In this document: piece after piece, positions 4,964 through 61,229 of the stretch
How the letters are laid out: each line of letters starts with the position of its first letter
How positions within the stretch are numbered: the stretch's first letter is position 1
NCBI GenBank assembly: GCA_965204285.1
Contig: OZ241980.1
Span: forward strand, 4,269,987 to 4,333,986
Direction: 5' to 3'
DNA length: 64,000 bases
DNA from: Candidatus Poribacteria bacterium
GTDB lineage: Bacteria; Poribacteria; WGA-4E; WGA-3G
Position numbers and translations under genes: made by a program
The notes under the pieces: model-generated
The model's database searches: none
The model's input: only the letters and a program-made list of their open reading frames with translations
Told to the model about the DNA's origin: nothing

Positions 4964-4991
4964 AAAAGACGTAAGGAGAAAAGACACAAGC

Positions 4992-26648: not shown

Positions 26649-26699
26649 ATATCATTTCTGACTGTAGTTTGATTAACCATTTGTAATTGATTTTGAAAT

Positions 26700-40700: not shown

Positions 40701-40777
40701 TACCAAATCAGGTAATGCCAAACGGTCTTAATTCTGATAAAAATACCTTTTTAAGTGGCTACACTACAAGGAGCAAA

Positions 40778-43420: not shown

Positions 43421-44416
43421 ATGAAAAAAACCTCATTGGTTACTGGTGGAGCAGGTTTTATGGGTGCCCACCTCGTTAATGAGTTACTTCGCGATGAAAA
43501 TCATCAAGTGGTTGCACTTGATGACCTGAGCGGTGGATTTCACGAAAATGTCAATCCAAATGCAACATTTGTTGAAGGTAGTATACTTGATGTTCAACTA
43601 ATAAACCAACTCTGTGAGCAGTATAAATTTAACTATATCTATCATCTTGCGGCGTATGCAGCAGAGGGATTGAGTCACTTTATCAAACGATTTAACTATC
43701 AAAATAACCTTATCGGTAGTGTCAACCTGATAAATGCCGCTGTGAACTATAATGTTAAACGGTTTGTGTTCACCTCTTCCATCGCTGTTTATGGTGAAAA
43801 CCAACTTCCGATGCACGAAGGACTCATACCGATGCCTGAAGATTCCTACGGTATCGCCAAATATGCTGTAGAACAAGAATTGGTCGTTTCTAAACACCTC
43901 TTTGACTTGGATTACACCATTTTCCGACCACATAATGTTTATGGTGAACTTCAGAATATTAGTGATAAATATCGCAATGTTATCGGCATCTTCATGAATA
44001 AAATTATGCAAAATGAACCCTTGGTTATCTTTGGAGATGGAGAGCAGACACGCGCTTTTACACATATCGCAGATGTCGCACCGCATATCGCACACTGCGT
44101 AGATATACCGGAAGCCTCATGTGAAGTTTTCAATGTCGGTTCGGATAAACATGTTTCTGTCAATGAATTAGCACATCTCGTCATGACAGCCATGGAAAAG
44201 GAGGTACCTGTAAAACATCTTCGAGAAAGGGAAGAGGTGAAGCATGCCTATTGCACGCATGAAAAATTCCACAAGGTTTTTGGAGAAACGTCACAGGTTT
44301 CACTTCCAGAAGGTTTAGGTAGGATGACAACATGGGCAAAGTCTGTCGGACCACGGGATTCCACCTTATTTAAGGACATTGAAATTCGCAAAAACCTACC
44401 TGAAGGTTGGAAATAA
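43421..44416 (+). CDS. NAD-dependent sugar epimerase/dehydratase (extended SDR)
   Basis: VTGGAGFMGAHL (GxxGxxG). YGIAKYAVEQ (YxxxK). Confidence 0.8.
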   Translation: MKKTSLVTGGAGFMGAHLVNELLRDENHQVVALDDLSGGFHENVNPNATFVEGSILDVQLINQLCEQYKFNYIYHLAAYAAEGLSHFIKRFNYQNNLIGSVNLINAAVNYNVKRFVFTSSIAVYGENQLPMHEGLIPMPEDSYGIAKYAVEQELVVSKHLFDLDYTIFRPHNVYGELQNISDKYRNVIGIFMNKIMQNEPLVIFGDGEQTRAFTHIADVAPHIAHCVDIPEASCEVFNVGSDKHVSVNELAHLVMTAMEKEVPVKHLREREEVKHAYCTHEKFHKVFGETSQVSLPEGLGRMTTWAKSVGPRDSTLFKDIEIRKNLPEGWK

Positions 44417-44445
44417 TTTTCTCCATCTCTGGATTCCAAATTTGC

Positions 44446-45762
44446 ATGGTGAAAAAACTTCTACGGCACAATACCTTTTGGGTAATGGTGATTACCTTTG
44501 TTGGAATGGGATTAAGTCTACTCACCCGTGCCATCTTGATTCCTAAGCGGTTTGATATCGGCATAACATCAGACGCACTGATTACCGCATTAAAAGTGGT
44601 GTTATTAGTCGATACGGTGGTACGGGAAGGTGCTAAGTTTAGTCTTGTTCCGCTCTTTATCACATGCGAAAAGGAGATGACGGATACAGAATACCTGCGT
44701 TTTACAAATAGTCTACTCAACTTTTTGCTCTGTGTTGGTTTAGGTATATTTATCCTTATTGAACTTTCCGCACCTTGGATTGTGAGGGCATTATCGTCAA
44801 CCATTGATGCGCAGAAGACGACTACACTGTTGCGATTATCTGCCCCATTGATTATCTTTGGATGTGGTAGCACCGTACTGGGTGCGTTGCTGAACAGTCG
44901 GCAGCGTTTTAAGACGGTAGCTCTCCGAAACGCACTCCCTCCCGGTGTCGCCGCTGTAGTATTTTTGTTCCTGTGGCACACTGAAAACTTAGAAAATTGG
45001 ATAGCGATTGCATACACAGGGGGTTTTGTCTTATATTTTGGATGGTTGTGCATCGGGATGTATCGAACGGGACATCGGTTTCAGTTTGAAGGAATTTCCC
45101 TTGATACGCTGCGTTCTTTGAAAAACACGGTTACGCTGCCAACACTCGGTTTCACTGTTCGACAGGTTACGAATCGTTTGTTGGTTGAAGTATCCCTTGT
45201 CTCACAACTCGGAAGTGGGGCAGTTACGCTCTATGAATGCGCTTTCAGGATTTTCTCTGCATTACAGACACTTATCGGGATCAGTATTGCTACAACTGGC
45301 TTGCCGGATATGGCGACACAAGATGTGGAGGATAATCAGCTCAAATTGAGACGCACACTCAAACGGAACATAGCAACAGCATTTTGCATTGCACTTCCAG
45401 TGACATTACTACTTCTTTTGAGCCACACAAAAATTGTCTCGCTTTTGTATACTGGGAATAAATTTGATCACGCGTCAATTCAACAGATCGCGCAAGTACT
45501 CTTCTGGCTCAGCACAGGGATGGTTTTTTCGTGTTTGATACCTGTGTTAAACGCTGGACTCTATGCTCAAAAAGCGTACGGATTGATTTTTAGAAACATG
45601 TTAACGATGGCAGTTTTAAACTTTGCTTTGGCTTATGGATTTGTTAAAGCATGGGGACTTCTTGGTATCGCTTTAGCCGTTTCAGTCACTGCAATTCTTG
45701 CTGTAGCCAATTTGACATATTTACTTCGAAAAACAGGAATAGTCTTGCTACCGAGAGATTGA
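44446..45762 (+). CDS. MOP-superfamily polysaccharide flippase (Wzx/MurJ-like)
   Basis: About 440 aa and about 12-14 TM helices, with typical Wzx/MurJ topology. Overlaps the epimerase stop. Confidence 0.5.
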   Translation: MVKKLLRHNTFWVMVITFVGMGLSLLTRAILIPKRFDIGITSDALITALKVVLLVDTVVREGAKFSLVPLFITCEKEMTDTEYLRFTNSLLNFLLCVGLGIFILIELSAPWIVRALSSTIDAQKTTTLLRLSAPLIIFGCGSTVLGALLNSRQRFKTVALRNALPPGVAAVVFLFLWHTENLENWIAIAYTGGFVLYFGWLCIGMYRTGHRFQFEGISLDTLRSLKNTVTLPTLGFTVRQVTNRLLVEVSLVSQLGSGAVTLYECAFRIFSALQTLIGISIATTGLPDMATQDVEDNQLKLRRTLKRNIATAFCIALPVTLLLLLSHTKIVSLLYTGNKFDHASIQQIAQVLFWLSTGMVFSCLIPVLNAGLYAQKAYGLIFRNMLTMAVLNFALAYGFVKAWGLLGIALAVSVTAILAVANLTYLLRKTGIVLLPRD

Positions 45763-45829
45763 AGCATATTTTTAGTAGAATTGGACTCAACGATTACATT
45801 GAGGACTCGGTTTAATTCTGGACGAATTT

Positions 45830-46810
45830 ATGAGTACTCCTACAAAAAAAGTCAGTGATTACCGTTATCTAATTGTAGGTGGGACAACAAAGGCAGCAAC
45901 TACATCCTTGTTTGCATATCTCGCAGACCATCCCACAATTTGCGGTGCTACCTATAAGGAAACACGATTTTTCCTTGACAGTAACTATCCCTTGCCATCA
46001 AAATATCGATACACTGGAGATTTGGAGGAATACAATCTTCTGTTTTCTTCTTGTGATGATGATCAAGTTCGCCTTGATTCAACACCGGATTATCTGTATT
46101 GCCCACAAGCCCTTGAACGAATCGCTACATTTCTGCCACATGCCAAGATAATTTTTAGCCTTCGCGAACCGATTTCACGTTTAGTTTCATGGTATCGATT
46201 CGCGAAACAAATTGGGAAATTGCCGCAAAACCTAAATTTTGATGCTTATGTAGAAAAGCTTTTTGACATAGAAGAACATTTACAAGTGGACAGTACTTCC
46301 ACAGATGAAAAACCTATCACTGAACAGTACATGCAGGCACTTAGGCAAGGGTGTTATGCCTTATATCTGAAAGAGTATTTTAAACAATTTAAGTCAAATC
46401 GTCTCTACATCCTCTTTTATGAAGACCTTGCCGCATACCCTTCAAAAGTGCTTACAGAGTTATGCAACTTTGCTGGCATAGATGCTAATTTTTATGAGGG
46501 CTACGCATTTAAAGTCACGAATCGTACCGAAACGATGAAAAATTCGGAGTTTCATAAAAAGTATAGAGACTTCCGATTTCGCTTACGTCAATGGACACAT
46601 AACAAGCCTCTAATTCACAATCCTTTAAGGTTACTGAGACGAACAATTGAACCGCTTTATCTTCGATTAAACACACGTCCAACTGAAAACGTCCACATGT
46701 CAGAAGATACACAAAAGCAATTAATAAATTACTACAAAAGCGATGTCCGTGATCTTACAGAATTAATTGGAAAAATACCGCCTTGGGAACAATTTACTTC
46801 GGCCCCGTAG
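45830..46810 (+). CDS. sulfotransferase-family protein (PAPS-dependent)
   Basis: 5'-PSB-like P-loop YLIVGGTTKAATTSL. 3'-PB-like IIFSLREPISRLVS. Confidence 0.6.
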   Translation: MSTPTKKVSDYRYLIVGGTTKAATTSLFAYLADHPTICGATYKETRFFLDSNYPLPSKYRYTGDLEEYNLLFSSCDDDQVRLDSTPDYLYCPQALERIATFLPHAKIIFSLREPISRLVSWYRFAKQIGKLPQNLNFDAYVEKLFDIEEHLQVDSTSTDEKPITEQYMQALRQGCYALYLKEYFKQFKSNRLYILFYEDLAAYPSKVLTELCNFAGIDANFYEGYAFKVTNRTETMKNSEFHKKYRDFRFRLRQWTHNKPLIHNPLRLLRRTIEPLYLRLNTRPTENVHMSEDTQKQLINYYKSDVRDLTELIGKIPPWEQFTSAP

Positions 46811-46853
46811 TACGAAAGTTTCGTGTTAGGTATTTCATTCAAGGAGAGTCAGT

Positions 46854-47759
46854 TTGGTTGATAAGTTAATCCAACTCATGATTGTGGGGACGCAGAAGTC
46901 GGGAACGTCTTCGTTACTGCATTATTTAGCACAACATCCTGATATCTATACGCATCCACAACCAGAGATGACTTTTTTCCTCCAAAATCATGAATATACA
47001 CGCGGGTACGAATCGGCATTTGCTAAATATTTCTCTCAATCTCCAGAAGATAAAAAACTTATTGCCAAAAATGTAATGGTGATGCATTCTCCAGAGATAA
47101 TGCAACGAATTCATGAACATAATCCGGAAATACATCTTGTTGTGCTACTGCGGGAACCTGTGGCACGCGCATACTCCGCCTATTGGTGGGCAAGACGCAG
47201 AGGTTGGGAAAATATCAAGACATTTGAAGAAGCGCTTGCTGCTGAGGAAACACGCCTTGAGGAAGATTGGTTCAAATGGCGGCAGTGTGGGTATCTCAAT
47301 AACAGCACTTATTATCCGCACGTCAAAAGTTTAATTGCACAATTTGGAGAGAGACACGTTCACTGCCTTTTAACCGGTGAATTACAAATAGATCCTCTGA
47401 CTGTTTGTCAACGCCTCTATAAACTTCTCAATATCGGCACCGATTTTGAACCTATCGTGGAAGAAAGACATAACCAAGCAGCAATGCCTCGATCTGAAAA
47501 GTTTAATTTCCTCTTTACACAGTTTCTATCATCTCATAATCCATTGAAACGTGCGATTCGTAAACTTGTGCCAGATGCTGCCGCTTACAAATTAAGAAAA
47601 AAAATCCTAAACTGGAACGACAAACCTTTCACGCCGCCGCCAATGAACCCGAAGACACGCGAAGAATTAAAAAATTATTTTACACCTTTTAATCAAGAAT
47701 TAGCAGAATTATTAGGACAAGATTTATCACATTGGAATGCCCATAAAGCAGTTACGTAA
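46854..47759 (+). CDS. sulfotransferase-family protein (PAPS-dependent)
   Basis: MIVGTQKSGTSSL (5'-PSB, PKxGTT-like). VVLLREPVARAYSAYWW (3'-PB RxxxRxxS-like). Confidence 0.65.
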   Translation: MVDKLIQLMIVGTQKSGTSSLLHYLAQHPDIYTHPQPEMTFFLQNHEYTRGYESAFAKYFSQSPEDKKLIAKNVMVMHSPEIMQRIHEHNPEIHLVVLLREPVARAYSAYWWARRRGWENIKTFEEALAAEETRLEEDWFKWRQCGYLNNSTYYPHVKSLIAQFGERHVHCLLTGELQIDPLTVCQRLYKLLNIGTDFEPIVEERHNQAAMPRSEKFNFLFTQFLSSHNPLKRAIRKLVPDAAAYKLRKKILNWNDKPFTPPPMNPKTREELKNYFTPFNQELAELLGQDLSHWNAHKAVT

Positions 47760-47803
47760 TGCTCAAACCAATAAATACTCCTTATCCGATTAGTATGTGA
47801 AAA

Positions 47804-49153
47804 ATGTTCATAATCTATTTTCTCACAGGTTACGTCGCTTTTGAAGAGTTTGTACTGAAATTTCTGCCTGTCAGTGATGCTGTATATTCTTACCTAAGAT
47901 TCTTAGGAGAGCTACTTATCTATGCGGCATTTGCAAAACTTGTTATTCACAAACTCTACAAAGGAATACCTTTCGTCAAAACAGCGATAGATTTGCCAAT
48001 TATCGGTTTTTACGTTGTGGTATTTCTTTCAATGGTAATAAACCGTTCACCATTGATCGGAAGCATTTATAATATCCGTCCATTTGCGCGGTATATAGTC
48101 CTCTTTTATCTTATTGCTAATTCACCTTTGTCTGAAAAACGCATTGCAACTTTTCTACGGGTAATTTTATGCGTTGGTGTAGCACAACTCTTTGCAGGTA
48201 TGATTCAATGGGCTGGTGGTCGCGGAGCTTTTGACTTCTTCCTTCCGCGTGCGTCAACGCTTGAAGTCGGTGGGTTCACAAAAGAATACAGATTGCTTGA
48301 ACTCGGTCGAGAAATTGGAAGTATCTATGGCACTTTGGGGGATACGGTTATTTACGGGGTGTTCATGATTCTTATCCTCGTCATTTTTCTTTCACGCATA
48401 AGGCGGTTGGAGTATCTGAATTTACTTGGAATAGTCGTTCTGTTGATGTTCATTGCCCGTTCTTACTCACGCGCTGCTACTTTTTCCGCGATTCTTGCAT
48501 GTGCAGCATGGTTCTACTTTCAATACGGTTGGAAGAAAACACTCCGTTTATCATTAGCAATAATACTCGTCTTCGGAATTCTTTTGGCGATAGTGAATCC
48601 ATTTAGCTTGGAATACGTTAATCCGAGAAAAGCGAAAGTTGGTTTGGTTGGGAATGTAACAGGTGTATTTTCTGGTTCTTATGTTCGTATAGCACAAAAA
48701 CAGAGACTTGGTGCCTTAATTGGGAATGTGCCGACAGTACTCGCAAACAAACCGATTTTAGGATATGGTGCAGATCAGAACAGCACGATTGAAAAACTGA
48801 ATATGAGCAAACGTTCATTTCTTTTAAAAGTACTCAGTAAAAAAGGATTTAAAGATGTGTATTGGGTTGCTATTCTCTGTTTTTACGGCCTGTTAGGGTT
48901 GGGTTTATTCAGTTTAATATTTCTCCGTCTTTTTATCGCGGCATTAAGTCTTTACAAGCGCGCAGTTAGTAGATACGCTAAGGAGATCGCGATGATAATG
49001 CTTTGTCTTGTTACAGTAACTGTCTTTTTGCTCTTTTTTAATCGAACACTTGAATTTCGTGGCTATGGGTTCTACTTTTGGCTGTGCGCGGGACTGATGT
49101 TTGCCAGTGATGCTTCACTTAAAACCTATAAACCGCTAAGGATTACTTTATGA
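47804..49153 (+). CDS. Wzy/O-antigen-ligase-like polytopic membrane protein
   Basis: About 10-12 TM helices with a large periplasmic loop. Locus context. Family call tentative. Confidence 0.4.
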   Translation: MFIIYFLTGYVAFEEFVLKFLPVSDAVYSYLRFLGELLIYAAFAKLVIHKLYKGIPFVKTAIDLPIIGFYVVVFLSMVINRSPLIGSIYNIRPFARYIVLFYLIANSPLSEKRIATFLRVILCVGVAQLFAGMIQWAGGRGAFDFFLPRASTLEVGGFTKEYRLLELGREIGSIYGTLGDTVIYGVFMILILVIFLSRIRRLEYLNLLGIVVLLMFIARSYSRAATFSAILACAAWFYFQYGWKKTLRLSLAIILVFGILLAIVNPFSLEYVNPRKAKVGLVGNVTGVFSGSYVRIAQKQRLGALIGNVPTVLANKPILGYGADQNSTIEKLNMSKRSFLLKVLSKKGFKDVYWVAILCFYGLLGLGLFSLIFLRLFIAALSLYKRAVSRYAKEIAMIMLCLVTVTVFLLFFNRTLEFRGYGFYFWLCAGLMFASDASLKTYKPLRITL

Positions 49154-50772: not shown

Positions 50773-51824
50773 AATTGGATAAAATGCTTTTTGTTGTAGG
50801 GAATAGTCGAAGTGGAACAACAATGATGGGACGTATTTTAGGGAAACATTCTGATGTCTATACTTTTGGCGAACTCCACTTTTTTGGACAGTTATGGTCT
50901 CCTGCATTTTCTTCTGAATTACAAAAACAGAAAGCAGAAAAGTTGGCTTCGCAGCTATTCTGTATTCAACGAGAAGGATACCGGACACACGGCAACCCCA
51001 GTAGTTTTCTGGGAGAATCTCAGAACTTTCTCAATGAATTAACTGAATATCCTACAACACCTGACCGTCTTTTTTCAGCGTTCCTCCAATACGAGGCATC
51101 GCTAAATTGTAAAACGATCCCTTGCGACCAGACACCACGTAATGTGTTTTACATTGAAGACATCCTCCAATTTTATCCACAAGCAAAGATTATTAACATG
51201 ATTCGGGATCCGCGGGATGTACTCCTATCTCAAAAGCAAAAATGGAAACGCCGCTTTCTCGGTGGTAGTGATATGCCAAGAAAAGAGACGTTCCGTGATT
51301 GGATTAACTATCATCCTGTAACGATCAGCCGAATTTGGCATACTGCTGTTACTGCCGGAGATAAATTAGTTGATAGTGAACGAGTTATTTCAATTTACTT
51401 TGAAAAACTTCTTGCACATCCTGAAGCGACAGTCGCTGATGTTTGTGACTTTATAGGTATTGATTACGCTGCTTCAATGTTACAAGTGCCGCAAGTCGGT
51501 TCTTCTGTTAACACAGATAAACCCAATCAACTCGGCATAAATCCGACTCGCACACATAACTGGCACACCAATCACAAAAGTAAAAAAGATTCTGATCTCC
51601 CAACCGAAAGACGAGAATCCCTCAGTTCCACGGAAATTTACATATCCGAAAAAATAAACAGGACGCTGATGGAAAAACATAACTATATTCCTGTTTCAAC
51701 ACGTCCAAACATTTTTAGCTTAGTTGTTAATATCCTCTCATTTCCAATGAAATTAGCGGCAGCTTTCGTTTGTAACCTTGATAGAATGAAAAACATCCGT
51801 GAAACCTTAAAAAGACGTTTATAA
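50769..51824 (+). CDS. sulfotransferase-family protein (PAPS-dependent)
   Basis: VVGNSRSGTTMMGRIL and MIRDPRDVLLS. Confidence 0.65.
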   Translation: MKLDKMLFVVGNSRSGTTMMGRILGKHSDVYTFGELHFFGQLWSPAFSSELQKQKAEKLASQLFCIQREGYRTHGNPSSFLGESQNFLNELTEYPTTPDRLFSAFLQYEASLNCKTIPCDQTPRNVFYIEDILQFYPQAKIINMIRDPRDVLLSQKQKWKRRFLGGSDMPRKETFRDWINYHPVTISRIWHTAVTAGDKLVDSERVISIYFEKLLAHPEATVADVCDFIGIDYAASMLQVPQVGSSVNTDKPNQLGINPTRTHNWHTNHKSKKDSDLPTERRESLSSTEIYISEKINRTLMEKHNYIPVSTRPNIFSLVVNILSFPMKLAAAFVCNLDRMKNIRETLKRRL

Positions 51825-51850
51825 TTCATATATTGACCTGTACGTAGAAC

Positions 51851-52852: not shown

Positions 52853-52927
52853 GTGGCATTGAAATAAGAGGAGGTTGTCAATGTGAATTATCCACACAAG
52901 TGTATAGTTCACTTGAAAAAGTATAAT

Positions 52928-53452: not shown

Positions 53453-53466
53453 GGTTCATTTACATT

Positions 53467-55548: not shown

Positions 55549-55559
55549 GGGAACGGTTT

Positions 55560-57596
55560 ATGAAAAACGATAAGCAACAGAAGACATCTTTTCAACCATT
55601 TACCCGACGGGATTTCCTATCAACAACTTTGAAAGCAGGTGCTGCCGCTTTCACGACAGGACTTTTGCCCAAACTCAAAGCAGACGCTAATTGTCAATAC
55701 AATGTGTTGTTTATCATGGCTGACGACCTACGCCCCCTACTTGGCTGCTACGGATATCCAGAGATGCATACGCCTAACATTGATAGACTTGCCCAGCGAG
55801 GCACACTCTTCAACCGTGCCTATTGCCAATTTCCTGTGTGTAACGCATCCCGGACCTCAATGCTCACTGGGTTAAGACCTGAGACAACAAGGGTGTTTTC
55901 CAATAGAGATAGATTTCGGGAGACGTTACCAAACGCTCTGACGCTCCCACAGCACTTTAAAGCATACGGATATCATACTCAATCGATTGGTAAAATTTTT
56001 CATAATCTTGCAATGCAAGATGACACCTATTCGTGGAGTGTTCCCTCGTGGGGACTGCCGATAACGAATCAGGGACCGTCGCATCCTTCTTGGAAAGCAT
56101 TTGAAGTTGAAGATAGTGAACTTAGTAGTGGTAAAACAGCAAAGCGCGCGATTGAGGTATTGGACGAAATTCAAGATACACAGTTTTTTCTCTCTGTTGG
56201 TTTTCACACACCACATTTACCTTTTTATGCCCCAAAGAGGTATTACGATTTATACAAAAACGAAAACTTCAGTTTTACATCTTCTTCCATCTACCCAAAT
56301 ACGAATATGAGGTTATTCCGAGATATCCCTGATGAAGGCCCTCTCACGGACGCAAAAGCGTTAGAATTAATTCGGGCGTACGCTGCATCAATTAGTTATA
56401 TGGACGCACAAATCGGACGTGTTTTAGACAGGATAGACGCACTCAGCTTGGCAGAAAAAACAGTTGTCATTTTTGCAGGTGACCACGGTTATCATCTTGG
56501 AGAGCATGGCAAATGGGGAAAGAATTATCTTTTTGAAGTTTCCCTCCGATCACCACTGATTGTCAGTGTTCCAGGACAGACATATCAGGGCGTTAAAACG
56601 GATGTCCTCACAGAACTTGTTGACATCTATCCAACATTGTGTGATGCATGTCAACTTCCAATACCTTCACAATTAGAAGGTTTGAGTCTGATGCCCGTCA
56701 TTGATGAACCGACACGTACGTGGAAAACTGCTGCTTTTAGCCAAGTAGGAAGGTCAAACGGGAATTCTATGCGGACAGAACAGTATCGATACACCGAGTG
56801 GGGAAACAATGGAAGACAAGGACAGGAACTTTACGATTATCATACTGACCCGAATGAGACAGTCAATATCGCGAATCTACCAGAAAACAAAGAACTTGTA
56901 GCACACCTCAGAGAACGGCTCCATGCTGGGTGGCAAGCGGCTTTGCCAGATGTACAAGAGCAAGTGCGTGTTCCGCAAACGTTACCATGGGATATAAACA
57001 ACGACGGTGTTGTAGATATTCAGGATCTGATCTTGGTTTCAAACAGTTTTGGGATGGAGACTCCAGAACATACGAAAGCAGATATAAATAAAGATGGAAA
57101 CGTTGATATAATAGATTTATTATATGTCGCATCGCATTTCGGGGAATCTTGCATTGCATCAGCATCCTCGGCATCAGTTTCACAAGAACATGTCAATAGC
57201 ATTTCTGAATGGTTGACTGAAGCACGCCAAGCAGATGACGGTTCTGACGTTTTTCGGCACGGAATTGCGAACTTAGAAGCGCTGTTTAACACCGTAACCC
57301 CTAAAAAAACAACCCTTCTTCCGAATTTTCCAAATCCTTTCAATCCAGAAACTTGGATACCTTATGATTTGGCGAGAGATACAGATGTCAACATTGAGAT
57401 CTATAATCTGAAGGGAGAAATTATTAGAAAGCTAAATATGGGATTACAAACTGCTGGCACCTATCGGAGTAAAACAAATGCAGCACATTGGGATGGACGT
57501 AATTCGGGGGGTGAACTTGTTGCAAGTGGCGTCTATTTTTATTCTCTTAACACTGGTATGGTAAAAGCTATCCGCCGAATGACAATTCTTAAATAA
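55560..57596 (+). CDS. Tat-signal sulfatase-family enzyme with variant C-N-A-S-R active-site motif and C-terminal dockerin-like pair plus T9SS-type CTD
   Basis: TRRDFLSTTLKAGAAAF. FIMADDLRP. CNASRTSMLTG (55839-55853; Ala in place of the canonical Pro). GDHGYHLGE. Same C-terminal module. Confidence 0.8.
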   Translation: MKNDKQQKTSFQPFTRRDFLSTTLKAGAAAFTTGLLPKLKADANCQYNVLFIMADDLRPLLGCYGYPEMHTPNIDRLAQRGTLFNRAYCQFPVCNASRTSMLTGLRPETTRVFSNRDRFRETLPNALTLPQHFKAYGYHTQSIGKIFHNLAMQDDTYSWSVPSWGLPITNQGPSHPSWKAFEVEDSELSSGKTAKRAIEVLDEIQDTQFFLSVGFHTPHLPFYAPKRYYDLYKNENFSFTSSSIYPNTNMRLFRDIPDEGPLTDAKALELIRAYAASISYMDAQIGRVLDRIDALSLAEKTVVIFAGDHGYHLGEHGKWGKNYLFEVSLRSPLIVSVPGQTYQGVKTDVLTELVDIYPTLCDACQLPIPSQLEGLSLMPVIDEPTRTWKTAAFSQVGRSNGNSMRTEQYRYTEWGNNGRQGQELYDYHTDPNETVNIANLPENKELVAHLRERLHAGWQAALPDVQEQVRVPQTLPWDINNDGVVDIQDLILVSNSFGMETPEHTKADINKDGNVDIIDLLYVASHFGESCIASASSASVSQEHVNSISEWLTEARQADDGSDVFRHGIANLEALFNTVTPKKTTLLPNFPNPFNPETWIPYDLARDTDVNIEIYNLKGEIIRKLNMGLQTAGTYRSKTNAAHWDGRNSGGELVASGVYFYSLNTGMVKAIRRMTILK

Positions 57597-57633
57597 AATT
57601 TATTTCATTTTGTTCCTTGGAGGCAGAAAATAC

Positions 57634-59262
57634 ATGTTTGGACGAATATTACTAATATTCTACATAGTTGCAAATTTCTGGTATTTCCCACGCGCCGACG
57701 CTGCTTCGCTAATAAACGTCCCCCTTAATCCAGATATATCTGATTTTAATACTGAAACCTACCGCTTTATTCATCGTTTACTTAATAAACGTGTGGTGTC
57801 GGGTGTGACGCGAGGTTCTTTACCGTTTACGCGAAAACAGGTTGCATCTTTGCTGGTAGAGGTGTCTCAAAAACTTGATAGAGGTGAACTCACTTTAAGC
57901 GTTAACGACCAGAAGCGCTTAAAGGACTTATCAGCCTTTTACTCAGAGGCTGGAACGCAAACCCCTCCCAATCGACGATTACACTTAGGCACACTTACTG
58001 ACAACTCTACCTCTCGTATCTCCTTTGATTTACGGGTTGGACACCAAGAGATCACACGTTTAGTTGATAACGTGTCCGAAGTGCCAAATGTTGAAGGGAA
58101 TATGCACGTTACAACGCTGTATCCACATCTATATGGGCAGTTTGAGGATAGTTTTGCTTTTTCAGGAGATATAGCATATAGGTCATTGTATGGAGACTTT
58201 TTTGACGATGTCTTTGCTGACGAATCGAAGCATAGACAATTGGAAGGAAAACTTAAAAACAGAATTGCTATCAATAGTTATCTTAAGTTTAATATGCCTT
58301 GGTTTGAATTGCAATTTGGACAAGATAATCTCCAATGGGGGCCTGGTTATCATGGAAATTTACTGATTTCCTCAGACCCATTAGCTATTGATATGGTAAA
58401 ATTTCAAACTAACTACAAAACTATATCGTTTACTGCATTCACTGGTGTATTAGAGGACATGTCAGAGGACATCAATGAGAAATATATTTCAGGTCACAGA
58501 ATTGAAGGATATTATTGGAATAGGTTTGGTTTTGGAATATCTGAGGTAGTTATCTATGGCAATCGGTTTGAACCTGGATATTTGAATCCTGTTAACATAT
58601 ATTTCATAAACGAACAGACTATATCACGGTCAGACAGTCGGGCTCCTGGTAGTGGTGATAATGTATTTGTCAGTGTTGATTTTCGGTTACGTCCTGTAGA
58701 TAATTTTGAGATATATGGTGAGTTGATGGTTGACGATGGGAATCCTGCTGTCAGTTTTAAACATTGGGATACGAAGTTTGGTATCCTCGGTGGGATTTAT
58801 CTTACGGACCCCTTTGGACTAACAGACACTGATTTTTACGCAGAATACACTTTTATAAACCAATACGCCTATACACACGTCAATCCTGCAAACGTATATA
58901 AACACTTTACCACGCCAATTGGACATCATATCGGTTCTGATGCAGATAATCTATGGATTGAACTGCGTAGACGTTTTACAGATAAGCTTGAAACCGTTTT
59001 TGGGTACGAACTTGAACGCCACGGTGAAGGAGACATAGACAAAAATCATCTACCTGGTGCACCAAAAGATGATGTGTGGACACCATTATCTGGAATCACG
59101 GAAAGTGAGCATCGTTTAAAAATCGGTTTTAATTGGGTTGCTATTGGTCATTATTCATTTTACGGTGAGTGGGCAAGGATTTGGAGGCGAAATCTCGAAA
59201 ATCGTCAAGATGTACATGAAACTGGAAATGAAATCCAAGCAAAAGCACTTTATAGATTTTAA
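57634..59262 (+). CDS. outer-membrane beta-barrel protein, possibly capsule-assembly Wzi-like
   Basis: Signal peptide. N-terminal helical segment (ETYRFIHRLLNKRVVSG...TRKQVASLL). Alternating amphipathic strands. C-terminal ...ALYRF (terminal Phe). Wzi assignment is from memory of the family and locus context. Confidence 0.35.
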   Translation: MFGRILLIFYIVANFWYFPRADAASLINVPLNPDISDFNTETYRFIHRLLNKRVVSGVTRGSLPFTRKQVASLLVEVSQKLDRGELTLSVNDQKRLKDLSAFYSEAGTQTPPNRRLHLGTLTDNSTSRISFDLRVGHQEITRLVDNVSEVPNVEGNMHVTTLYPHLYGQFEDSFAFSGDIAYRSLYGDFFDDVFADESKHRQLEGKLKNRIAINSYLKFNMPWFELQFGQDNLQWGPGYHGNLLISSDPLAIDMVKFQTNYKTISFTAFTGVLEDMSEDINEKYISGHRIEGYYWNRFGFGISEVVIYGNRFEPGYLNPVNIYFINEQTISRSDSRAPGSGDNVFVSVDFRLRPVDNFEIYGELMVDDGNPAVSFKHWDTKFGILGGIYLTDPFGLTDTDFYAEYTFINQYAYTHVNPANVYKHFTTPIGHHIGSDADNLWIELRRRFTDKLETVFGYELERHGEGDIDKNHLPGAPKDDVWTPLSGITESEHRLKIGFNWVAIGHYSFYGEWARIWRRNLENRQDVHETGNEIQAKALYRF

Positions 59263-59416
59263 GTCGTATCCTGATAAGTTCGCAGTTGTTCCTTACGATT
59301 AGAGTGGAATTACGAACTTCAACTAATAAGACATTTTTAATGAAGATTCATGTTGGTTATCGCATCAAAGAAATTGTTTTATAGGCTTATCTTGGTATCA
59401 TTCGGAAGGATTTAAG

Positions 59417-60538
59417 ATGAAAATTCGCGTATTGGGCATTCGTGGTCTTCCAGCAACTTATAGTGGTTTGGAGACCATCATGGGTGAACTTGCACCGCGC
59501 TGGGTGGAAGCGGGACATGAAGTCACTGTCTATTGCCGAAAAGCAGTTTTTAAAGAGAGACCACGCGAATGGAAAGGTATCAAGTTAGTCTATTTACCCA
59601 GCATTGAACATAAAGTATTTAGCACTCTCAGCCATAGTTTTTTGGCAACTTTACACGCTTCGTTTTCCCCTTCTGATGCTATTCTTGTATGGAATGCTGG
59701 TAATGGTCCCTTTGGTTGGTTTTTCCGTATTGCTGGTAAAAGTGCTGTTATCAACGTTGATGGTATGGAATGGCTTCGTCCAAAGTGGAAAGGTATAGGT
59801 GCTGTCTACTTCAAGTGGGCAGCAAAGATGGCTACTTCCGCGTTTCCGATTGTAATTACCGATGCCGAAGAAATGAAAAGACTCTACCTTGAAGAATTAG
59901 GCGCTGAAACGACATATATTGCTTACGGAGCAAACATTGAGCCATCTGAGCATCCTGAGATCCTTGACAATTATGGGCTTGAATCACGGAATTTCTATCT
60001 TATCGCGAGTCGCCTCGTTCCCGATAATAATGCAGACCTGATTTTGGAAGCATTTGTTAACTCAAATAGCGAGAAAAAACTTGCTATAGCTGGTGGGGCA
60101 GACTATAAAGGTAACAAACTTGAAAATGAATTTTTAGATAAATTGAAAAGTATAGCCAATGAAAACGTGATATTTTTGGGACATATTGATAGTTCAGAAC
60201 ATATAAAGGAACTTCACCATCACTGCTTTGCCTACATTCATGGACACCAATTCGGTGGCATCAATCCATCCATTTTGAAGGCGTTAGGATATTCTAACTG
60301 CATTTTGGCACTCAATACACCTTTCAACCATGAAGTCCTGGAGGGCGGTACTTACGGTGTGCTCTTTGACAAGAATTCAGAAGCGCTCAAAGTCGAAATT
60401 GAGACGTTAGAACAGAATCCAGGGAAGGTTGACGACTTCCGTCGGCGTGCTCCTGAACAGATACGAAAACGATTCAATTGGGACCATATTGCAGAACAAT
60501 ATATTGACGTTTTTGAAAAACTACAGAAGAAAAAATGA
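59417..60538 (+). CDS. GT4-type glycosyltransferase with DUF1972-like N-terminus
   Basis: MKIRVLGIRGLPATYSGLETIMGELAPR (DUF1972-like). C-terminal GT-B domain. Confidence 0.55.
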   Translation: MKIRVLGIRGLPATYSGLETIMGELAPRWVEAGHEVTVYCRKAVFKERPREWKGIKLVYLPSIEHKVFSTLSHSFLATLHASFSPSDAILVWNAGNGPFGWFFRIAGKSAVINVDGMEWLRPKWKGIGAVYFKWAAKMATSAFPIVITDAEEMKRLYLEELGAETTYIAYGANIEPSEHPEILDNYGLESRNFYLIASRLVPDNNADLILEAFVNSNSEKKLAIAGGADYKGNKLENEFLDKLKSIANENVIFLGHIDSSEHIKELHHHCFAYIHGHQFGGINPSILKALGYSNCILALNTPFNHEVLEGGTYGVLFDKNSEALKVEIETLEQNPGKVDDFRRRAPEQIRKRFNWDHIAEQYIDVFEKLQKKK

Positions 60539-60569
60539 AATCTACTAATTTCGGGTAGGATAAAGGATA

Positions 60570-61229
60570 ATGGCACATTTGCCAATAAAATTTAGCGTTT
60601 CCAAACCTGACTTTGCATATATGAACGACACAGCACAGCCTTCAGTTGAAAGACTTTCTTCCTTCTACGCAAAGCGAGGAAAATATTTGCTTGATTTTGT
60701 GGCAGCGTTTTTCTTGATACTTATATTTGCTCCACTAATGATTCTCATTTCAATACTGATTAAACTCTCCTCACGGGGACCAATTTTCTTCTCGCATAAA
60801 CGGGTTGGGAAAAATAATAAACTTTTTGTCATTCACAAGTTCAGAAGCCTCCATATTGATACGCCCTCCTATTCAGAAAAACCCGATTCAACAGAAGATG
60901 TTCGTATCACTTCGGTTGGTAAATGGATTCGTAAAACGAGTTTAGACGAATTGCCTCAGTTATTTAACGTGATTAAGGGTGAAATGAGTCTCGTGGGGCC
61001 TCGTCCAGAAATGCCATTCCTTGCTGAGAATTACGAAGAATGGGAAAATCAACGCCATCTCGTGCGCCCTGGAATGACGGGACTTTGGCAGTTGAGCCCG
61101 CGCCGCCGTGGGTCAATCCGTGAAGGAATTCCTGTTGATTTGGAATATATTGAGAATTTGTCCTTATGGAACGACTTCAAAATATTGCTACGGACGTTCA
61201 AAGTCTTTTGGGACGACAACACCTATTAA
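60570..61229 (+). CDS. polyprenyl-phosphate sugar phosphotransferase (bacterial sugar transferase, WbaP/WcaJ C-terminal-domain type); initiating enzyme
   Basis: Signature LDELPQLFNVIKGEMSLVGPRPE. Single N-terminal TM. Confidence 0.8.
   Translation: MAHLPIKFSVSKPDFAYMNDTAQPSVERLSSFYAKRGKYLLDFVAAFFLILIFAPLMILISILIKLSSRGPIFFSHKRVGKNNKLFVIHKFRSLHIDTPSYSEKPDSTEDVRITSVGKWIRKTSLDELPQLFNVIKGEMSLVGPRPEMPFLAENYEEWENQRHLVRPGMTGLWQLSPRRRGSIREGIPVDLEYIENLSLWNDFKILLRTFKVFWDDNTY

What the first reader, a model, noticed from the sequence alone, without database searches (positions are those of the whole stretch)
43421..61229. Wzx/Wzy-type glycan locus with four sulfotransferases: candidate sulfated-polysaccharide biosynthesis cluster
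A same-strand block encodes, in order:
- NAD-epimerase
- MOP flippase
- sulfotransferase x2
- Wzy/O-antigen-ligase-like protein
- clan-A glycoside hydrolase
- sulfotransferase x2
- lipoprotein
- two secreted sulfatases
- Wzi-like OM barrel
- GT (DUF1972-type)
- initiating polyprenyl-P sugar transferase

Several genes have 1-4-nt start/stop overlaps (44407/44416, 49150/49153, 50769/50772). This indicates translational coupling within one operon.

Four PAPS-type sulfotransferases inside a Wzx/Wzy pathway are rare in bacteria. Sulfated EPS is known in only a few lineages.

Sulfatases and a glycoside hydrolase sit in the same locus. That suggests the polymer is both made and trimmed or remodelled at the surface.
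Basis: partly seen in the sequence, partly recalled or inferred. Interest (0 to 1): 0.7.

Follow-up and report, generated by a model that had tools for sequence, protein, structure and literature searches.

The report
Sulfated surface-glycan gene cluster in Poribacteria
A sponge-symbiont (Poribacteria) genome carries a tightly packed gene cluster, conserved across the phylum, that most likely builds a heavily sulfated cell-surface sugar polymer. Secreted sulfatases sit inside the cluster as an optional cassette.

Summary
**Observation:** confirmed. All thirteen gene calls hold. The four sulfotransferases pass the Pfam cut-offs and keep both PAPS-binding motifs.

**Source:** a Candidatus Poribacteria genome (sponge symbiont).

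**Conservation:**
- The core order is epimerase, MurJ-type flippase, ST-A, ST-B, Wzy-like, GH, ST-C, ST-D, then Wzi, a Cps2T-like GT and the PGT.
- The eight upstream genes are intact and in this order in 63 of 71 Poribacteria species genomes.
- PAPS motifs and GH catalytic motifs are invariant, and there are no pseudogenes.

**Sulfatases:**
- They are not core. They form a cassette of 0-4 ancient S1_7-type paralogues, usually with an orphan helical lipoprotein.
- The cassette always sits between ST-D and Wzi. It is present in 41 of 58 complete intervals.

**Other phyla:** homologous ST-rich flippase/polymerase clusters, each with a clan GH-A hydrolase, occur in cyanobacteria, anammox Brocadiaceae and Geothermobacter. 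The kind is therefore known; the closest characterised case is the cyanobacterial synechan xss cluster.

**New here:**
- the phylum;
- four STs with only two GTs;
- the embedded sulfatase cassette.

**Unresolved:**
- PAPS supply, because no cysC/cysD lies in the window and the rest of the genome is out of reach;
- polymerase versus ligase role of the Wzy-like protein;
- absence of Wza/Wzc in the window;
- whether the sulfatases act on the cell's own polymer or on host glycans.

**Scores:** interest about 0.6; a new variant of a known kind.

The parts
43421..44416 (+). GalE-type NAD-dependent sugar-nucleotide 4-epimerase. Its presumed role is to supply the initiating or second sugar.
   Evidence: - PF01370, 3e-49.
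- Best PDB match 4zrm, a UDP-glucose 4-epimerase, 8e-50.
- GGAGFMG and YxxxK motifs are conserved in 64 orthologues; only two motif positions show a rare conservative substitution.
44446..45762 (+). MurJ-family MOP flippase, the presumed Und-PP-glycan flippase. The ORF opens at TTG 44407, but ATG 44446 is the likelier start.
   Evidence: - PF03023, 1e-48.
- TIGR01695, 160 bits, below the 235 cut-off.
- About 10 hydrophobic segments.
- N-terminal comparison with orthologues.
- Wzx (PF01943) takes this place in the homologous clusters of other phyla.
45830..46810 (+). Sulfotransferase ST-A (Sulfotransfer_1 type, resembling heparan sulfate 3-OST/NDST); cytoplasmic.
   Evidence: - PF00685, 52.9 bits.
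- PDB 3rnl, 5e-13; NDST and 3-OST also match.
- The PAPS-binding positions of both motifs (TTKAATTSL and RxPxxR..S) are invariant in 67 orthologues; a few neighbouring hydrophobic positions vary conservatively.
- No TM segment or signal peptide.
46854..47759 (+). Sulfotransferase ST-B (Sulfotransfer_1 type); cytoplasmic.
   Evidence: - PF00685, 47.4 bits.
- PDB 3rnl, 1e-32; HS 3-OST1, 1e-16.
- Motifs GxQKxGTSSL and LREPxxRAYSAY are conserved in 67 orthologues.
47804..49153 (+). Wzy_C-family polytopic membrane protein, the presumed repeat-unit polymerase. A ligase role is not excluded.
   Evidence: - PF04932, 25.4 bits, below the 31.7 cut-off.
- Seven or more hydrophobic segments.
- 50% invariant columns in 69 orthologues.
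- 43% identical (E 1e-94) to the equivalent gene in a Pleurocapsa cluster.
- PF01901 O-antigen polymerase sits in this place in anammox clusters.
- No PDB sequence match.
49150..50772 (+). Membrane-anchored clan GH-A glycoside hydrolase with a GH51/GH79-like barrel and a C-terminal beta-sandwich. Core to the cluster.
   Evidence: - PDB GH51, 3e-11.
- AlphaFold model pLDDT 76; Foldseek top match GH51 3ug3, E 3e-23, TM 0.60-0.66; GH79 beta-glucuronidase follows.
- NE (E197) and TEWN (E325) are invariant in 70 orthologues.
- N-terminal TM segment 17-35.
- GH42-like, GH5 or ASD1_dom hydrolases occupy the equivalent place in other phyla.
50769..51824 (+). Sulfotransferase ST-C (Sulfotransfer_3 type) with a C-terminal hydrophobic helix.
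   Evidence: - PF13469, 104 bits.
- PDB 4gox (annotated 'Polyketide synthase'), 3e-7; TPSTs also match.
- GNSRSGTT and RDPRD..S are invariant in 70 orthologues apart from one sequence at one Arg.
- Hydrophobic segment 315-333.
51851..52852 (+). Sulfotransferase ST-D (Sulfotransfer_3 type) with a conserved 60-residue N-terminal extension.
   Evidence: - PF13469, 87 bits.
- TPST is the nearest PDB match, 1e-7.
- GTGRSGTT and RNGWD..S are conserved in 72 orthologues.
- 52-57% identical orthologues occur in cyanobacteria, Brocadiaceae, Desulfosarcinaceae and Geothermobacter.
52928..53452 (+). Orphan all-helical lipoprotein ('p189'), restricted to Poribacteria. It is the first gene of the variable cassette.
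   Evidence: - Lipobox LIGC read directly from the sequence.
- No Pfam or NCBIfam hit.
- 260 homologues, all unnamed or from Poribacteria.
- Model pLDDT 82; no significant fold match.
- Present in 26 of 41 loci with sulfatases and in 2 of 17 without.
53467..55548 (+). Secreted S1 (formylglycine) sulfatase 1. Architecture: Tat-like signal, catalytic domain, dockerin, C-terminal sorting-type domain.
   Evidence: - PF00884, 8e-46, plus SGSH_C, Dockerin_1 and FlgD_ig/Por_Secre_tail.
- PDB 6hhm, 2e-90; human iduronate-2-sulfatase 5fql, 2e-61.
- CSPSR motif and RRDFL signal.
55560..57596 (+). Secreted S1 sulfatase 2, an ancient paralogue 65% identical to sulfatase 1.
   Evidence: - PF00884, 5e-47.
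- CNASR motif.
- TIGR04183 T9SS type A sorting domain, 26 bits against a 23 cut-off.
- Paralogue groups and their order recur across species.
57610..59262 (+). Wzi-family outer-membrane protein, the presumed surface anchoring lectin or barrel for the polymer.
   Evidence: - PF14052, 6e-27, 95 bits against a 30.1 cut-off.
- Conserved in 57 loci.
- Also present next to Wza/Wzz in the Geothermobacter cluster.
59417..60538 (+). GT4/DUF1972 glycosyltransferase, Cps2T/WchF-like. A candidate beta-1,4-rhamnosyltransferase acting on the lipid-linked first sugar.
   Evidence: - PF00534 and PF09314.
- NF046071 Cps2T, 3e-51 over its full length, 174 bits, below the 500 cut-off.
- 57% invariant columns.
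- DUF1972 GTs are present in the clusters of the other phyla.
60570..61229 (+). Small monotopic polyprenyl-phosphate glycosyl-1-phosphate transferase (initiating PGT).
   Evidence: - PF02397, 1e-62.
- TIGR03025, 260 bits; WcaJ, 230 bits; both below cut-off.
- One hydrophobic helix.
61252..61632 (+). DUF983 small membrane protein. It is conserved immediately downstream; whether it belongs to the cluster is uncertain.
   Evidence: - PF06170, 1e-8.
- Follows the PGT in nearly all loci that reach this far.

Best explanation
**What it is**
The block is a Poribacteria-wide operon-like cluster that assembles a sulfated cell-surface glycan on undecaprenyl phosphate.

**Proposed route** (steps are marked as inferred where they go beyond homology)
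1. The small PGT (60570-61229) puts a hexose-1-phosphate on Und-P. The GalE-type epimerase supplies the nucleotide sugar.
2. The Cps2T/WchF-like GT4 (59417-60538) adds the second sugar, possibly L-rhamnose.
3. The four cytoplasmic sulfotransferases, two of the 3-OST/NDST type and two of the Sulfotransfer_3 type, use PAPS to sulfate distinct positions of the lipid-linked unit (inferred). PAPS exists only in the cytoplasm, so sulfation should precede flipping.
4. The MurJ-family flippase moves the unit to the periplasmic face.
5. The Wzy_C-family protein polymerises it (inferred).
6. The membrane-anchored clan GH-A hydrolase processes or limits the chain in the periplasm. Hydrolases play this part in other EPS clusters.
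7. Wzi holds the product at the outer membrane.

**Cassette**
The lipoprotein plus 0-4 S1_7-type sulfatases form an accessory, differentially retained cassette. The sulfatases carry a Tat-like signal, a dockerin and a sorting-type C-terminal domain. They are exported to the cell surface. I judge it somewhat more likely than not that they edit or recycle the cell's own polymer rather than only foraging host glycans.
For: **Shown**
- Every enzyme family is called with Pfam, NCBIfam or PDB support.
- PAPS motifs are conserved in 67-72 orthologues and no orthologue has an internal stop.
- ST-A, ST-B and ST-D have no signal peptide or TM segment. The GH has an N-terminal anchor.
- The eight-gene upstream core is intact and in the same order in 63 of 71 Poribacteria species genomes.
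- The same functional set recurs in other phyla, with non-orthologous replacements at the same positions:
  - flippase: PF01943 Wzx instead of MurJ;
  - polymerase: PF01901 instead of Wzy_C;
  - hydrolase: GH42-like or GH5 instead of the GH51-like protein;
  - PGT: MraY-type instead of Bac_transf;
  - STs and a DUF1972 GT are present throughout.
- The Geothermobacter version sits with Wzi, Wza and Wzz.
- The Jettenia version sits with RmlA, RmlC and a CysQ-like Inositol_P phosphatase. This fits a rhamnose component and PAP turnover.
- Cyanobacteria make sulfated EPS through a Wzx/Wzy cluster that contains STs (PMC8205485).
- Sulfated GAG-like polymers are found in anammox granules without a known producer (PMC7356697).

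**Cassette**
- 89 of 90 sulfatases keep the CxPxR or CxAxR motif.
- 67 of 72 copies from multi-copy loci have their nearest relative in another species.
- Paralogue order recurs across species.
- The cassette always lies between ST-D and Wzi, at 11-30-nt spacing in the window.
Against: - No PAPS synthesis gene lies in the window or in 1.6 Mb of related loci. The rest of the genome could not be searched.
- No Wza/OPX or Wzc/PCP lies in the 64-kb window.
- The Wzy_C hit is below Pfam's cut-off. That family also holds WaaL ligases and PglL O-oligosaccharyltransferases.
- Only two GTs lie in the cluster, so 'polymer' is inferred rather than shown.
- The flippase could be the housekeeping MurJ.
- The cassette is missing in 29% of complete intervals and in all non-poribacterial homologous clusters.
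- S1_7 enzymes with solved structures or known function are catabolic exo-sulfatases (own knowledge). From my own knowledge, Poribacteria carry large sulfatase repertoires thought to attack host matrix (Kamke et al. 2013, not held in the library).
- There is no chemical evidence for any poribacterial polymer.
Confidence: 0.68

Rival explanations
1. The product is a short sulfated oligosaccharide rather than a polymer. The Wzy_C-family protein then acts as a WaaL-type ligase or a PglL-type O-oligosaccharyltransferase. It would attach a sulfated di- or trisaccharide to lipid A-core, giving a sulfated LOS, or to surface proteins.
For: - Only two GTs lie in the cluster.
- PF04932 is named 'O-antigen ligase', and the hit is weak.
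- No Wzc or Wza lies in the window.
- The backbone genes are unusually conserved (Wzy 50%, GT4 57% invariant columns). This looks more like a housekeeping envelope glycan than a serotype-variable capsule.
- The neighbouring genes encode many secreted dockerin/CTD proteins that could be acceptors.
Against: - Anammox clusters have a PF01901 'O-antigen polymerase' family protein at the equivalent place.
- The Geothermobacter homologue sits with Wza, Wzz and Wzi, which is the full polymer export set.
- Wzi is conserved in Poribacteria.
- A core GH makes most sense with a polymer.
Confidence: 0.18
2. The sulfatases have nothing to do with the cluster's product. They would be host- or algal-glycan foraging enzymes, of which Poribacteria have many. 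In this reading they entered this intergenic site once in an ancestor and have persisted or been lost by drift.
For: - The cassette is absent from 17 of 58 complete intervals, including close relatives of the window genome (L001, L009, L010, L012).
- It is absent from all homologous clusters in other phyla.
- The closest characterised relatives are catabolic: 6hhm and iduronate-2-sulfatase.
- The Tat/dockerin/CTD architecture is shared with unrelated neighbours, the LRR and FG-GAP proteins.
- The best promoter-like match of the region (11 of 12) lies just upstream of the cassette at 52818-52846. That would allow separate transcription, although promoter-like matches in the region are no more frequent than in shuffled sequence.
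Against: - The cassette always sits at the same site, on the same strand and tightly spaced.
- Several ancient paralogue groups are retained in a recurrent order over divergences of about 65% identity. This argues for selection on the linkage.
- EPS clusters commonly carry enzymes that act on their own product (established knowledge: PslG, AlgL, BcsZ).
Confidence: 0.35
3. The sulfotransferases act on a non-carbohydrate acceptor, such as a lipid, a peptide tyrosine or a small metabolite. Their position in a glycan cluster would then be incidental.
For: - The nearest solved structures for ST-C and ST-D are tyrosylprotein sulfotransferases and a chain annotated as a polyketide synthase (4gox).
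- PF13469 is functionally broad.
Against: - ST-A and ST-B are nearest to heparan sulfate 3-OST and NDST carbohydrate sulfotransferases.
- ST-C and ST-D give weak hits to the Nod-factor carbohydrate sulfotransferase NoeE.
- All four are interleaved with the flippase, polymerase, GH and GT genes in four phyla.
Confidence: 0.05

Closest known systems
Synechan (xss) cluster of Synechocystis sp. PCC 6803: Wzx/Wzy-dependent sulfated exopolysaccharide (Maeda et al. 2021, PMC8205485)
   Same: - Sulfotransferases are embedded in a flippase/polymerase-type EPS cluster.
- Sulfation is proposed on the lipid-linked repeat unit at the cytoplasmic face.
- The OPX gene lies outside the cluster.
- Cyanobacterial clusters related to it contain direct homologues of the window's genes in Pleurocapsa: Wzy 43%, ST-A 45%, ST-C 49%, ST-D 53%, GH 27% identity.
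   Different: - xss has 2 STs, 8 GTs and a PCP. It also has XssQ/R/S regulators, and no glycoside hydrolase or sulfatase is reported for it.
- The window has 4 STs and only 2 GTs.
- The window has a MurJ-type flippase, Wzi and a core GH.
- No PCP or regulator lies in the window.
- The window has the sulfatase cassette.
Putative sulfated glycosaminoglycan-like EPS cluster of Pontiella sulfatireligans F21 (Kiritimatiellae; PMC7356697)
   Same: - A marine bacterium that carries many sulfatases and also makes sulfated exopolymers.
- A PF13469 sulfotransferase sits inside a GT-rich cluster.
   Different: - One ST and eight GT2/GT4 genes.
- No Wzy, Wzi or GH described.
- Sulfation is mostly N-linked.
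- The sulfatases are not inside the biosynthetic cluster.
Homologous, uncharacterised clusters in anammox Brocadiaceae (L070, L079 Ca. Jettenia caeni) and Geothermobacter hydrogeniphilus (L080)
   Same: - Same module and partly the same order: flippase, ST, ST, polymerase, clan GH-A hydrolase, ST, ST, epimerase, DUF1972 GT, PGT.
- STs are 46-55% identical to the window's.
   Different: - Wzx (PF01943), PF01901 polymerase, GH42-like or GH5 hydrolase and MraY-type PGT replace the poribacterial types.
- Extra GT4/GT2 genes, rmlA/rmlC, a CysQ-like gene, or Wza/Wzz are present.
- No sulfatase cassette.
EPS clusters with a built-in hydrolase or lyase for their own product (Psl/PslG, alginate/AlgL, cellulose/BcsZ); established knowledge
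   Same: A periplasm-facing clan GH-A hydrolase is encoded inside the biosynthetic cluster and is conserved with it.
   Different: - The hydrolase here is a distant GH51/GH79-like protein that falls below all family cut-offs.
- Its substrate would be sulfated.
- No experimental data exist.
Animal heparan sulfate system: several position-specific sulfotransferases plus extracellular editing endosulfatases (Sulf1/2); established knowledge
   Same: - Several STs, including 3-OST/NDST-like folds, are combined with extracellular S1 sulfatases that could edit the pattern.
   Different: - The animal system works in the Golgi on a protein-linked chain, not on Und-PP.
- The bacterial sulfatases are nearest to iduronate-2-sulfatase and 6hhm (S1_7 type by own knowledge), not to Sulf-type endosulfatases.
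- This is an analogy only.

Membership tests
Wzx/Wzy-dependent polysaccharide assembly | Initiating polyprenyl-phosphate glycosyl-1-phosphate transferase | tested here: met
   PF02397, 1e-62, 211 bits against a 27 cut-off.
Wzx/Wzy-dependent polysaccharide assembly | MOP-superfamily flippase in the cluster | tested here: met
   - PF03023 MurJ, 166 bits.
- It is the MurJ type, not Wzx (PF01943/PF13440), and is below the MurJ equivalog cut-off.
- The Wzx type takes its place in homologous clusters.
Wzx/Wzy-dependent polysaccharide assembly | Wzy repeat-unit polymerase | tested here: inconclusive
   - PF04932, 25.4 bits, below the 31.7 cut-off.
- No PDB match.
- Polytopic membrane protein.
- The equivalent gene in anammox clusters is PF01901.
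- A ligase or O-OTase role is not excluded.
Wzx/Wzy-dependent polysaccharide assembly | PCP (Wzc/Wzz) and OPX (Wza) export proteins | tested here: not met
   - No PF02706 or PF02563 among the window ORFs scanned.
- They may lie elsewhere in the genome, as the OPX gene does for xss.
- Both are present in the Geothermobacter homologue.
Wzx/Wzy-dependent polysaccharide assembly | Wzi surface-assembly protein (group 1 capsule type) | tested here: met
   PF14052, 95 bits against a 30.1 cut-off. No PDB sequence match.
PAPS-dependent sulfotransferases | Family HMM above the curated cut-off, for all four proteins | tested here: met
   PF00685: 52.9 and 47.4 bits against a 22 cut-off. PF13469: 104 and 87 bits against a 27 cut-off.
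PAPS-dependent sulfotransferases | 5'-phosphosulfate-binding loop and 3'-phosphate-binding motif | tested here: met
   Both motifs are present in all four. They are invariant or nearly so in 67-72 orthologues.
PAPS-dependent sulfotransferases | PAPS supply (ATP sulfurylase plus APS kinase) in the same genome | not testable with these tools
   - None in the window or in 78 related loci.
- The source chromosome could not be fetched.
- A KEGG-level 'assimilatory sulfate reduction' module is reported for Poribacteria (PMC8546597).
PAPS-dependent sulfotransferases | Sulfate transfer to a carbohydrate acceptor | not testable with these tools
   This needs enzymology or analysis of the polymer.
S1 formylglycine-dependent sulfatases (S1_7, iduronate-2-sulfatase-like) | Sulfatase HMM and the C/S-x-P/A-x-R formylglycine motif | tested here: met
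   - PF00884, 157 and 161 bits.
- CSPSR and CNASR motifs; 89 of 90 cassette copies keep the motif.
- PDB 6hhm, 2e-90; 5fql, 2e-61.
S1 formylglycine-dependent sulfatases (S1_7, iduronate-2-sulfatase-like) | Maturase (FGE or anSME) available | not tested
   None among the window ORFs scanned.
GH51 / GH79 (clan GH-A) | (beta/alpha)8 barrel plus beta-sandwich fold, with acid/base NE and a nucleophile Glu | tested here: met
   Foldseek GH51, E 3e-23, TM 0.60-0.66; GH79 next. E197 and E325 motifs are invariant.
GH51 / GH79 (clan GH-A) | Family-level HMM membership | tested here: not met
   - PF03662, 19.9 bits, below the 23.1 cut-off.
- ArfA, 59.5 bits, below the 625 cut-off.
- PF22848 only 'faint'.
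- It is a clan-level relative, not a member of GH51 or GH79.
Cyanobacterial xss-type sulfated EPS system | XssS/XssR/XssQ regulatory set near the cluster | tested here: not met
   No two-component or STAND regulator among the window ORFs scanned.
T9SS cargo proteins | Type A C-terminal sorting domain (TIGR04183) | tested here: inconclusive
   - Sulfatase 2: 26 bits against a 23 cut-off. FG-GAP protein: 34.7 bits.
- Sulfatase 1 reaches only Pfam 20.6 bits, below the 27 cut-off.
- Whether Poribacteria have T9SS machinery was not tested.

The most novel reading that the evidence does not exclude
**Reading:** Poribacteria coat themselves with a densely sulfated glycan, up to four sulfates on a two-sugar repeat, resembling glycosaminoglycan or rhamnan sulfate.

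- The coat would imitate the sponge's own sulfated matrix and recognition glycans. The symbiont would then be read as 'self' and not phagocytosed.
- The variable cassette of surface-displayed exo-sulfatases (0-4 paralogues) would tune the sulfation pattern to the host species.
- In a related version, the anionic glycan is the surface anchor for the many dockerin/CTD proteins encoded next to it. This would parallel anionic LPS anchoring T9SS cargo in Porphyromonas.
Probability: 0.12. Interest if true: 0.85.

Novelty: new variant of a known kind. Interest (0 to 1): 0.6.

Why it matters
**Field context**
- Genetically defined routes to bacterial sulfated polysaccharides are almost limited to the cyanobacterial xss cluster.
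- Papers on granular-sludge and anammox EPS state that the producers and genes of sulfated glycosaminoglycan-like polymers are unknown (PMC7356697, PMC10483923).

**What this locus offers**
- Together with its homologues in cyanobacteria, Brocadiaceae and the cultured Geothermobacter hydrogeniphilus, it defines a cross-phylum module. The module comprises a flippase, a polymerase, 2-4 STs, a clan GH-A hydrolase and a Cps2T-like GT. It gives concrete candidate genes, and one culturable organism in which to test them.
- For sponge biology, it suggests that a dominant symbiont phylum makes sulfated glycans. Until now the phylum has been known, from my own recollection of the literature, for degrading them. 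A sulfated coat would bear on host recognition.
- Sulfated polysaccharides also have value as biomaterials.

Tried and rejected
**Led nowhere**
- Exact-sequence look-ups of window proteins to fetch the source chromosome failed. Whole-genome questions (PAPS genes, Wza/Wzc, FGE, a second MurJ) therefore stayed open.
- Two literature searches for PAPS genes in Poribacteria returned only unrelated papers.
- Key Poribacteria papers (Kamke 2013, Podell 2019) are not held. Kamke 2014 holds none of the terms searched.
- The promoter/terminator scan found no more sites than shuffled sequence, so it says nothing about operon structure.
- The Wzy-like and Wzi proteins have no PDB sequence relatives, so polymerase and ligase roles could not be separated.

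**Considered and rejected**
- Recent tandem duplication of the sulfatases: same-locus copies are only about 65% identical, and their nearest relatives lie in other species.
- Membership of the GH in GH51 or GH79: it is below all family cut-offs.
- The idea that ST-rich clusters are unique to this lineage.

Full report
**1. Observation**

| Coordinates | Call | Evidence |
|---|---|---|
| 43421-44416 | NAD epimerase | PF01370, 3e-49 |
| 44407/44446-45762 | MurJ-family MOP flippase | PF03023, 1e-48 |
| 45830-46810 | ST-A | PF00685, 52.9 bits (cut-off 22) |
| 46854-47759 | ST-B | PF00685, 47.4 bits (cut-off 22) |
| 47804-49153 | Wzy_C-like polytopic protein | 25.4 bits, below the 31.7 cut-off |
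| 49150-50772 | glycoside-hydrolase-like protein | see section 4 |
| 50769-51824 | ST-C | PF13469, 104 bits (cut-off 27) |
| 51851-52852 | ST-D | PF13469, 87 bits (cut-off 27) |
| 52883/52928-53452 | lipoprotein | no family |
| 53467-55548 | sulfatase 1 | PF00884, about 1e-46 |
| 55560-57596 | sulfatase 2 | PF00884, about 1e-46 |
| 57610-59262 | Wzi | PF14052, 95 bits |
| 59417-60538 | GT4/DUF1972 | PF00534, PF09314 |
| 60570-61229 | Bac_transf PGT | PF02397, 1e-62 |

A DUF983 gene follows at 61252-61632.

On the three claimed overlaps:
- ATGA at 49150-49153 is real.
- GTGA at 50769-50772 is real if ST-C starts at the GTG. An ATG at 50784 is the alternative.
- The 44407/44416 overlap rests on a TTG start. 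Orthologue N-termini are unconserved there, and an ATG at 44446 is the likelier start.

The promoter/terminator scan gave no more sites than shuffled sequence. Operon status therefore rests on shared strand and spacing of 11-154 nt only.

**2. Source organism**

The GH-like protein has 362 relatives. The best 120 are at least 65% identical, and those that carry a name are 'Candidatus Poribacteria bacterium'. An identical copy lies on a 5,076,652-bp contig. The window is thus from a sponge-symbiont Poribacteria genome.

The surroundings are consistent with this: three tandem LRR proteins and an FG-GAP/ASPIC protein, all with a dockerin and a C-terminal sorting-type domain. I recall eukaryote-like repeat proteins being reported for this phylum; that link is from memory.

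**3. Are the four sulfotransferases real?**

- All four exceed Pfam's gathering scores.
- ST-A and ST-B are nearest to a bacterial ST (3rnl) and to heparan sulfate 3-OST and NDST.
- ST-C and ST-D are nearest to tyrosylprotein sulfotransferases and to 4gox, a chain annotated 'Polyketide synthase'. They also give weak hits to the Nod-factor sulfotransferase NoeE.
- In alignments of 67-72 poribacterial orthologues, the 5'-phosphosulfate loop and the 3'-phosphate motif are invariant or nearly so in all four. No orthologue has an internal stop.
- ST-A, ST-B and ST-D have no signal peptide or TM segment. ST-C has only a C-terminal hydrophobic helix.

They are therefore cytoplasmic enzymes under purifying selection.

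**4. The hydrolase**

- Sequence hits to GH51 arabinofuranosidases reach E 3e-11 and cover the acid/base region.
- The AlphaFold model (pLDDT 76) matches GH51 structures at Foldseek E 3e-23 and TM 0.60-0.66. GH79 beta-glucuronidase follows.
- The NE (E197) and TEWN (E325) motifs are invariant in 70 orthologues.
- All family-level HMMs are below cut-off. I file it as a distant clan GH-A enzyme, not as GH51 or GH79.
- It has an N-terminal membrane anchor.

**5. Comparative genomics within Poribacteria**

A scan of one genome per GTDB species with an ST-D alignment returned 75 loci, 71 of them Poribacteria. A tblastn survey of these loci gave the following.

- 63 of 71 hold all eight upstream genes in the same order: epimerase, MurJ, ST-A, ST-B, Wzy, GH, ST-C, ST-D. 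Most of the rest are cut by contig ends.
- Wzi, GT4, PGT and DUF983 follow in nearly all loci that reach that far.
- Backbone genes are unusually conserved. Invariant columns: GT4 57%, Wzy 50%, epimerase 50%, PGT 49%. The STs are at about 30% and MurJ at 21%.
- This is a conserved envelope trait of the phylum, not a serotype-variable locus.

**6. The sulfatases are a variable cassette**

Copy number between ST-D and Wzi, in 58 complete intervals:

| Copies | 0 | 1 | 2 | 3 | 4 |
|---|---|---|---|---|---|
| Loci | 17 | 18 | 12 | 8 | 3 |

- Close relatives of the window genome range from 0 copies (L001, L009, L010, L012) to 4 (L006).
- The small lipoprotein accompanies the cassette in 26 of 41 loci with sulfatases and in 2 of 17 without.
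- Of 90 cassette sulfatases, 89 keep the CxPxR or CxAxR formylglycine motif. 79 have a twin-arginine RRxFL signal. 88 have the dockerin and the NPFNPET C-terminal domain.
- Copies in one locus are only about 65% identical. For 67 of 72 copies, the nearest relative lies in another species.
- Clustering at 70% identity gives about four large paralogue groups. 42 of 46 loci carry copies from different groups. The window's pair (groups 17 and 20) recurs in that order next to Wzi.
- The cassette is therefore ancient and multi-paralogous, and has been differentially lost. It is not a recent insertion or duplication.
- The nearest solved relatives are 6hhm (2e-90) and human iduronate-2-sulfatase (2e-61). 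From memory, 6hhm is the S1_7 sulfatase of the Formosa ulvan locus. This is the exo-2-O-sulfatase type.
- The lipoprotein family has 260 members, all unnamed or from Poribacteria. It is confidently all-helical (pLDDT 82) and has no fold relative of any weight.

**7. Beyond Poribacteria**

ST-D has 2122 relatives at E<=1e-20. Named sources include Candidatus Brocadiaceae, Ca. Jettenia, Ca. Loosdrechtia, several cyanobacteria and Geothermobacter hydrogeniphilus.

| Locus | Organism | Gene order |
|---|---|---|
| L070 | Brocadiaceae | Wzx, ST-A' (49%), ST-B' (48%), PF01901 polymerase, GH42-like, GT4, ST-C' (50%), GINT1_N protein, ST-D' (54%), epimerase (55%), DUF1972 GT, MraY-type PGT |
| L079 | Ca. 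Jettenia caeni | RmlA, RmlC, CysQ-like Inositol_P, Wzx, ST, methyltransferase, GT4, ST, ST, GH42-like, polymerase, then PGT |
| L080 | Geothermobacter | PGT, Wzi, Wza, Wzz, Wzx, ST, unassigned ORF, GT2, ST-D', GT4, GH5, DUF1972 GT |
| L081 | Pleurocapsa | Wzx, GT2, Wzy (43%, E 1e-94), ST-C' (49%), ST-A' (45%), GT4, ASD1_dom GH (27%, E 2e-22), ST-D' (53%) |

Identities are to the window proteins.

The same functional set recurs with non-orthologous replacement of the flippase, polymerase, hydrolase and PGT. That is the strongest argument here that these genes work together as a flippase/polymerase pathway for a sulfated glycan, and that the hydrolase is part of it. None of these clusters has sulfatases.

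**8. Mechanism**

See Best explanation for the route.

- Shown by homology: the enzyme classes, their predicted location in the cell, and the gene linkage.
- Inferred:
  - sulfation on the Und-PP-linked unit before flipping, because PAPS is cytoplasmic;
  - polymerisation by the Wzy-like protein;
  - rhamnose as the second sugar. The Cps2T/WchF-like GT scores 174 bits, below the 500 cut-off, and rmlA/rmlC lie in the Jettenia cluster;
  - a two-sugar repeat with up to four sulfates, because only two GTs lie in the cluster. Another GT4 lies 13 kb upstream at 30246-31448, and others may lie elsewhere.

**9. Open points**

- No cysC, cysD or sat lies in the window or in 1.6 Mb of related loci. The chromosome could not be fetched.
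- The only outside support for PAPS supply is the report that the assimilatory sulfate reduction module is found in Poribacteria (PMC8546597).
- No Wza or Wzc lies in the window.
- The Wzy-like protein could be a ligase.
- The target of the sulfatases is unknown.

**10. Comparison with the literature**

- The characterised relative is the synechan xss cluster, with 2 STs, 8 GTs, Wzx, Wzy and a PCP. Its authors noted many ST-containing clusters in cyanobacteria and none elsewhere (PMC8205485).
- Pontiella has one ST in a GT cluster and makes sulfated exopolymers (PMC7356697).
- For granular sludge and anammox, the genes behind sulfated polymers are said to be unknown.
- No held paper links Poribacteria with sulfotransferases in any relevant way.

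**11. Verdict**

The kind of system is known. New here are the phylum, the ratio of four STs to two GTs, the core hydrolase recognised across phyla, and the embedded ancient sulfatase cassette. Interest 0.6.

Noticed in passing
window 25239-29264 (+): A bacterial Pnkp/Hen1 RNA repair pair. Hen1 has PF12623 (3e-115) plus a methyltransferase domain. Pnkp follows, with kinase, phosphoesterase and ligase domains (PF16542, 5e-178).
   Followed up: no
window 2183-5993 (+): A corrinoid methyltransferase set: a B12-binding protein, a RACo-type reductive activator (PF14574, 3e-67) and a homocysteine S-methyltransferase-like protein.
   Followed up: no
window 32673-43408 (+): Three tandem leucine-rich-repeat proteins (1078, 731 and 785 aa) and an FG-GAP/ASPIC protein. 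Each has a dockerin and a T9SS-type C-terminal sorting domain, the same tail as the sulfatases. An LRR relative in L001 also carries a cohesin domain. This hints at a cohesin-dockerin surface display system next to the glycan cluster. FG-GAP or LRR genes lie upstream of the cluster in many other species too.
   Followed up: partly
window 44446-45762 and loci L001, L008, L012 versus L004-L007 and L009-L011: The flippase shows two divergent allele classes among otherwise close relatives. MurJ is 89-94% identical in some genomes but only 65-68% in others whose neighbouring genes are 82-94% identical. This suggests replacement of the flippase gene by recombination. It remains unexplained.
   Followed up: no
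window 52818-52846 (+): The best sigma-70-like match of the region (11 of 12: ATGACA, 17 nt, TATAAT) lies inside the 3' end of ST-D, just upstream of the cassette lipoprotein. It might drive the cassette separately. Promoter-like matches in the region are no more frequent than in shuffled sequence.
   Followed up: no
window 52928-53452 (+): An orphan, confidently folded all-helical lipoprotein family of 260 members, found only in Poribacteria and tied to the sulfatase cassette. No family or fold match.
   Followed up: yes
L079 395-4718 (Ca. Jettenia caeni CP129467): In the anammox homologue, rmlA, rmlC and a CysQ-like inositol-phosphatase-family gene sit directly upstream of the Wzx-ST cluster, and an IS element is inserted after Wzx. 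This gives candidate genes for the sulfated polymers reported in anammox granules.
   Followed up: partly
L007, L011, L049, L076 (downstream of ST-D): In a few Poribacteria species, ST-D is not followed by Wzi, GT4 and PGT within 10 kb. Unrelated genes follow, some on the other strand, so the cluster appears split.
   Followed up: partly
window 10066-11973 (-), 13970-16048 (-), 31836-32486 (+): A large DUF6785/DUF6784 membrane protein (5.6e-157), a BatA/VWA protein and a lamin-tail-domain protein. No link to the cluster was seen.
   Followed up: no
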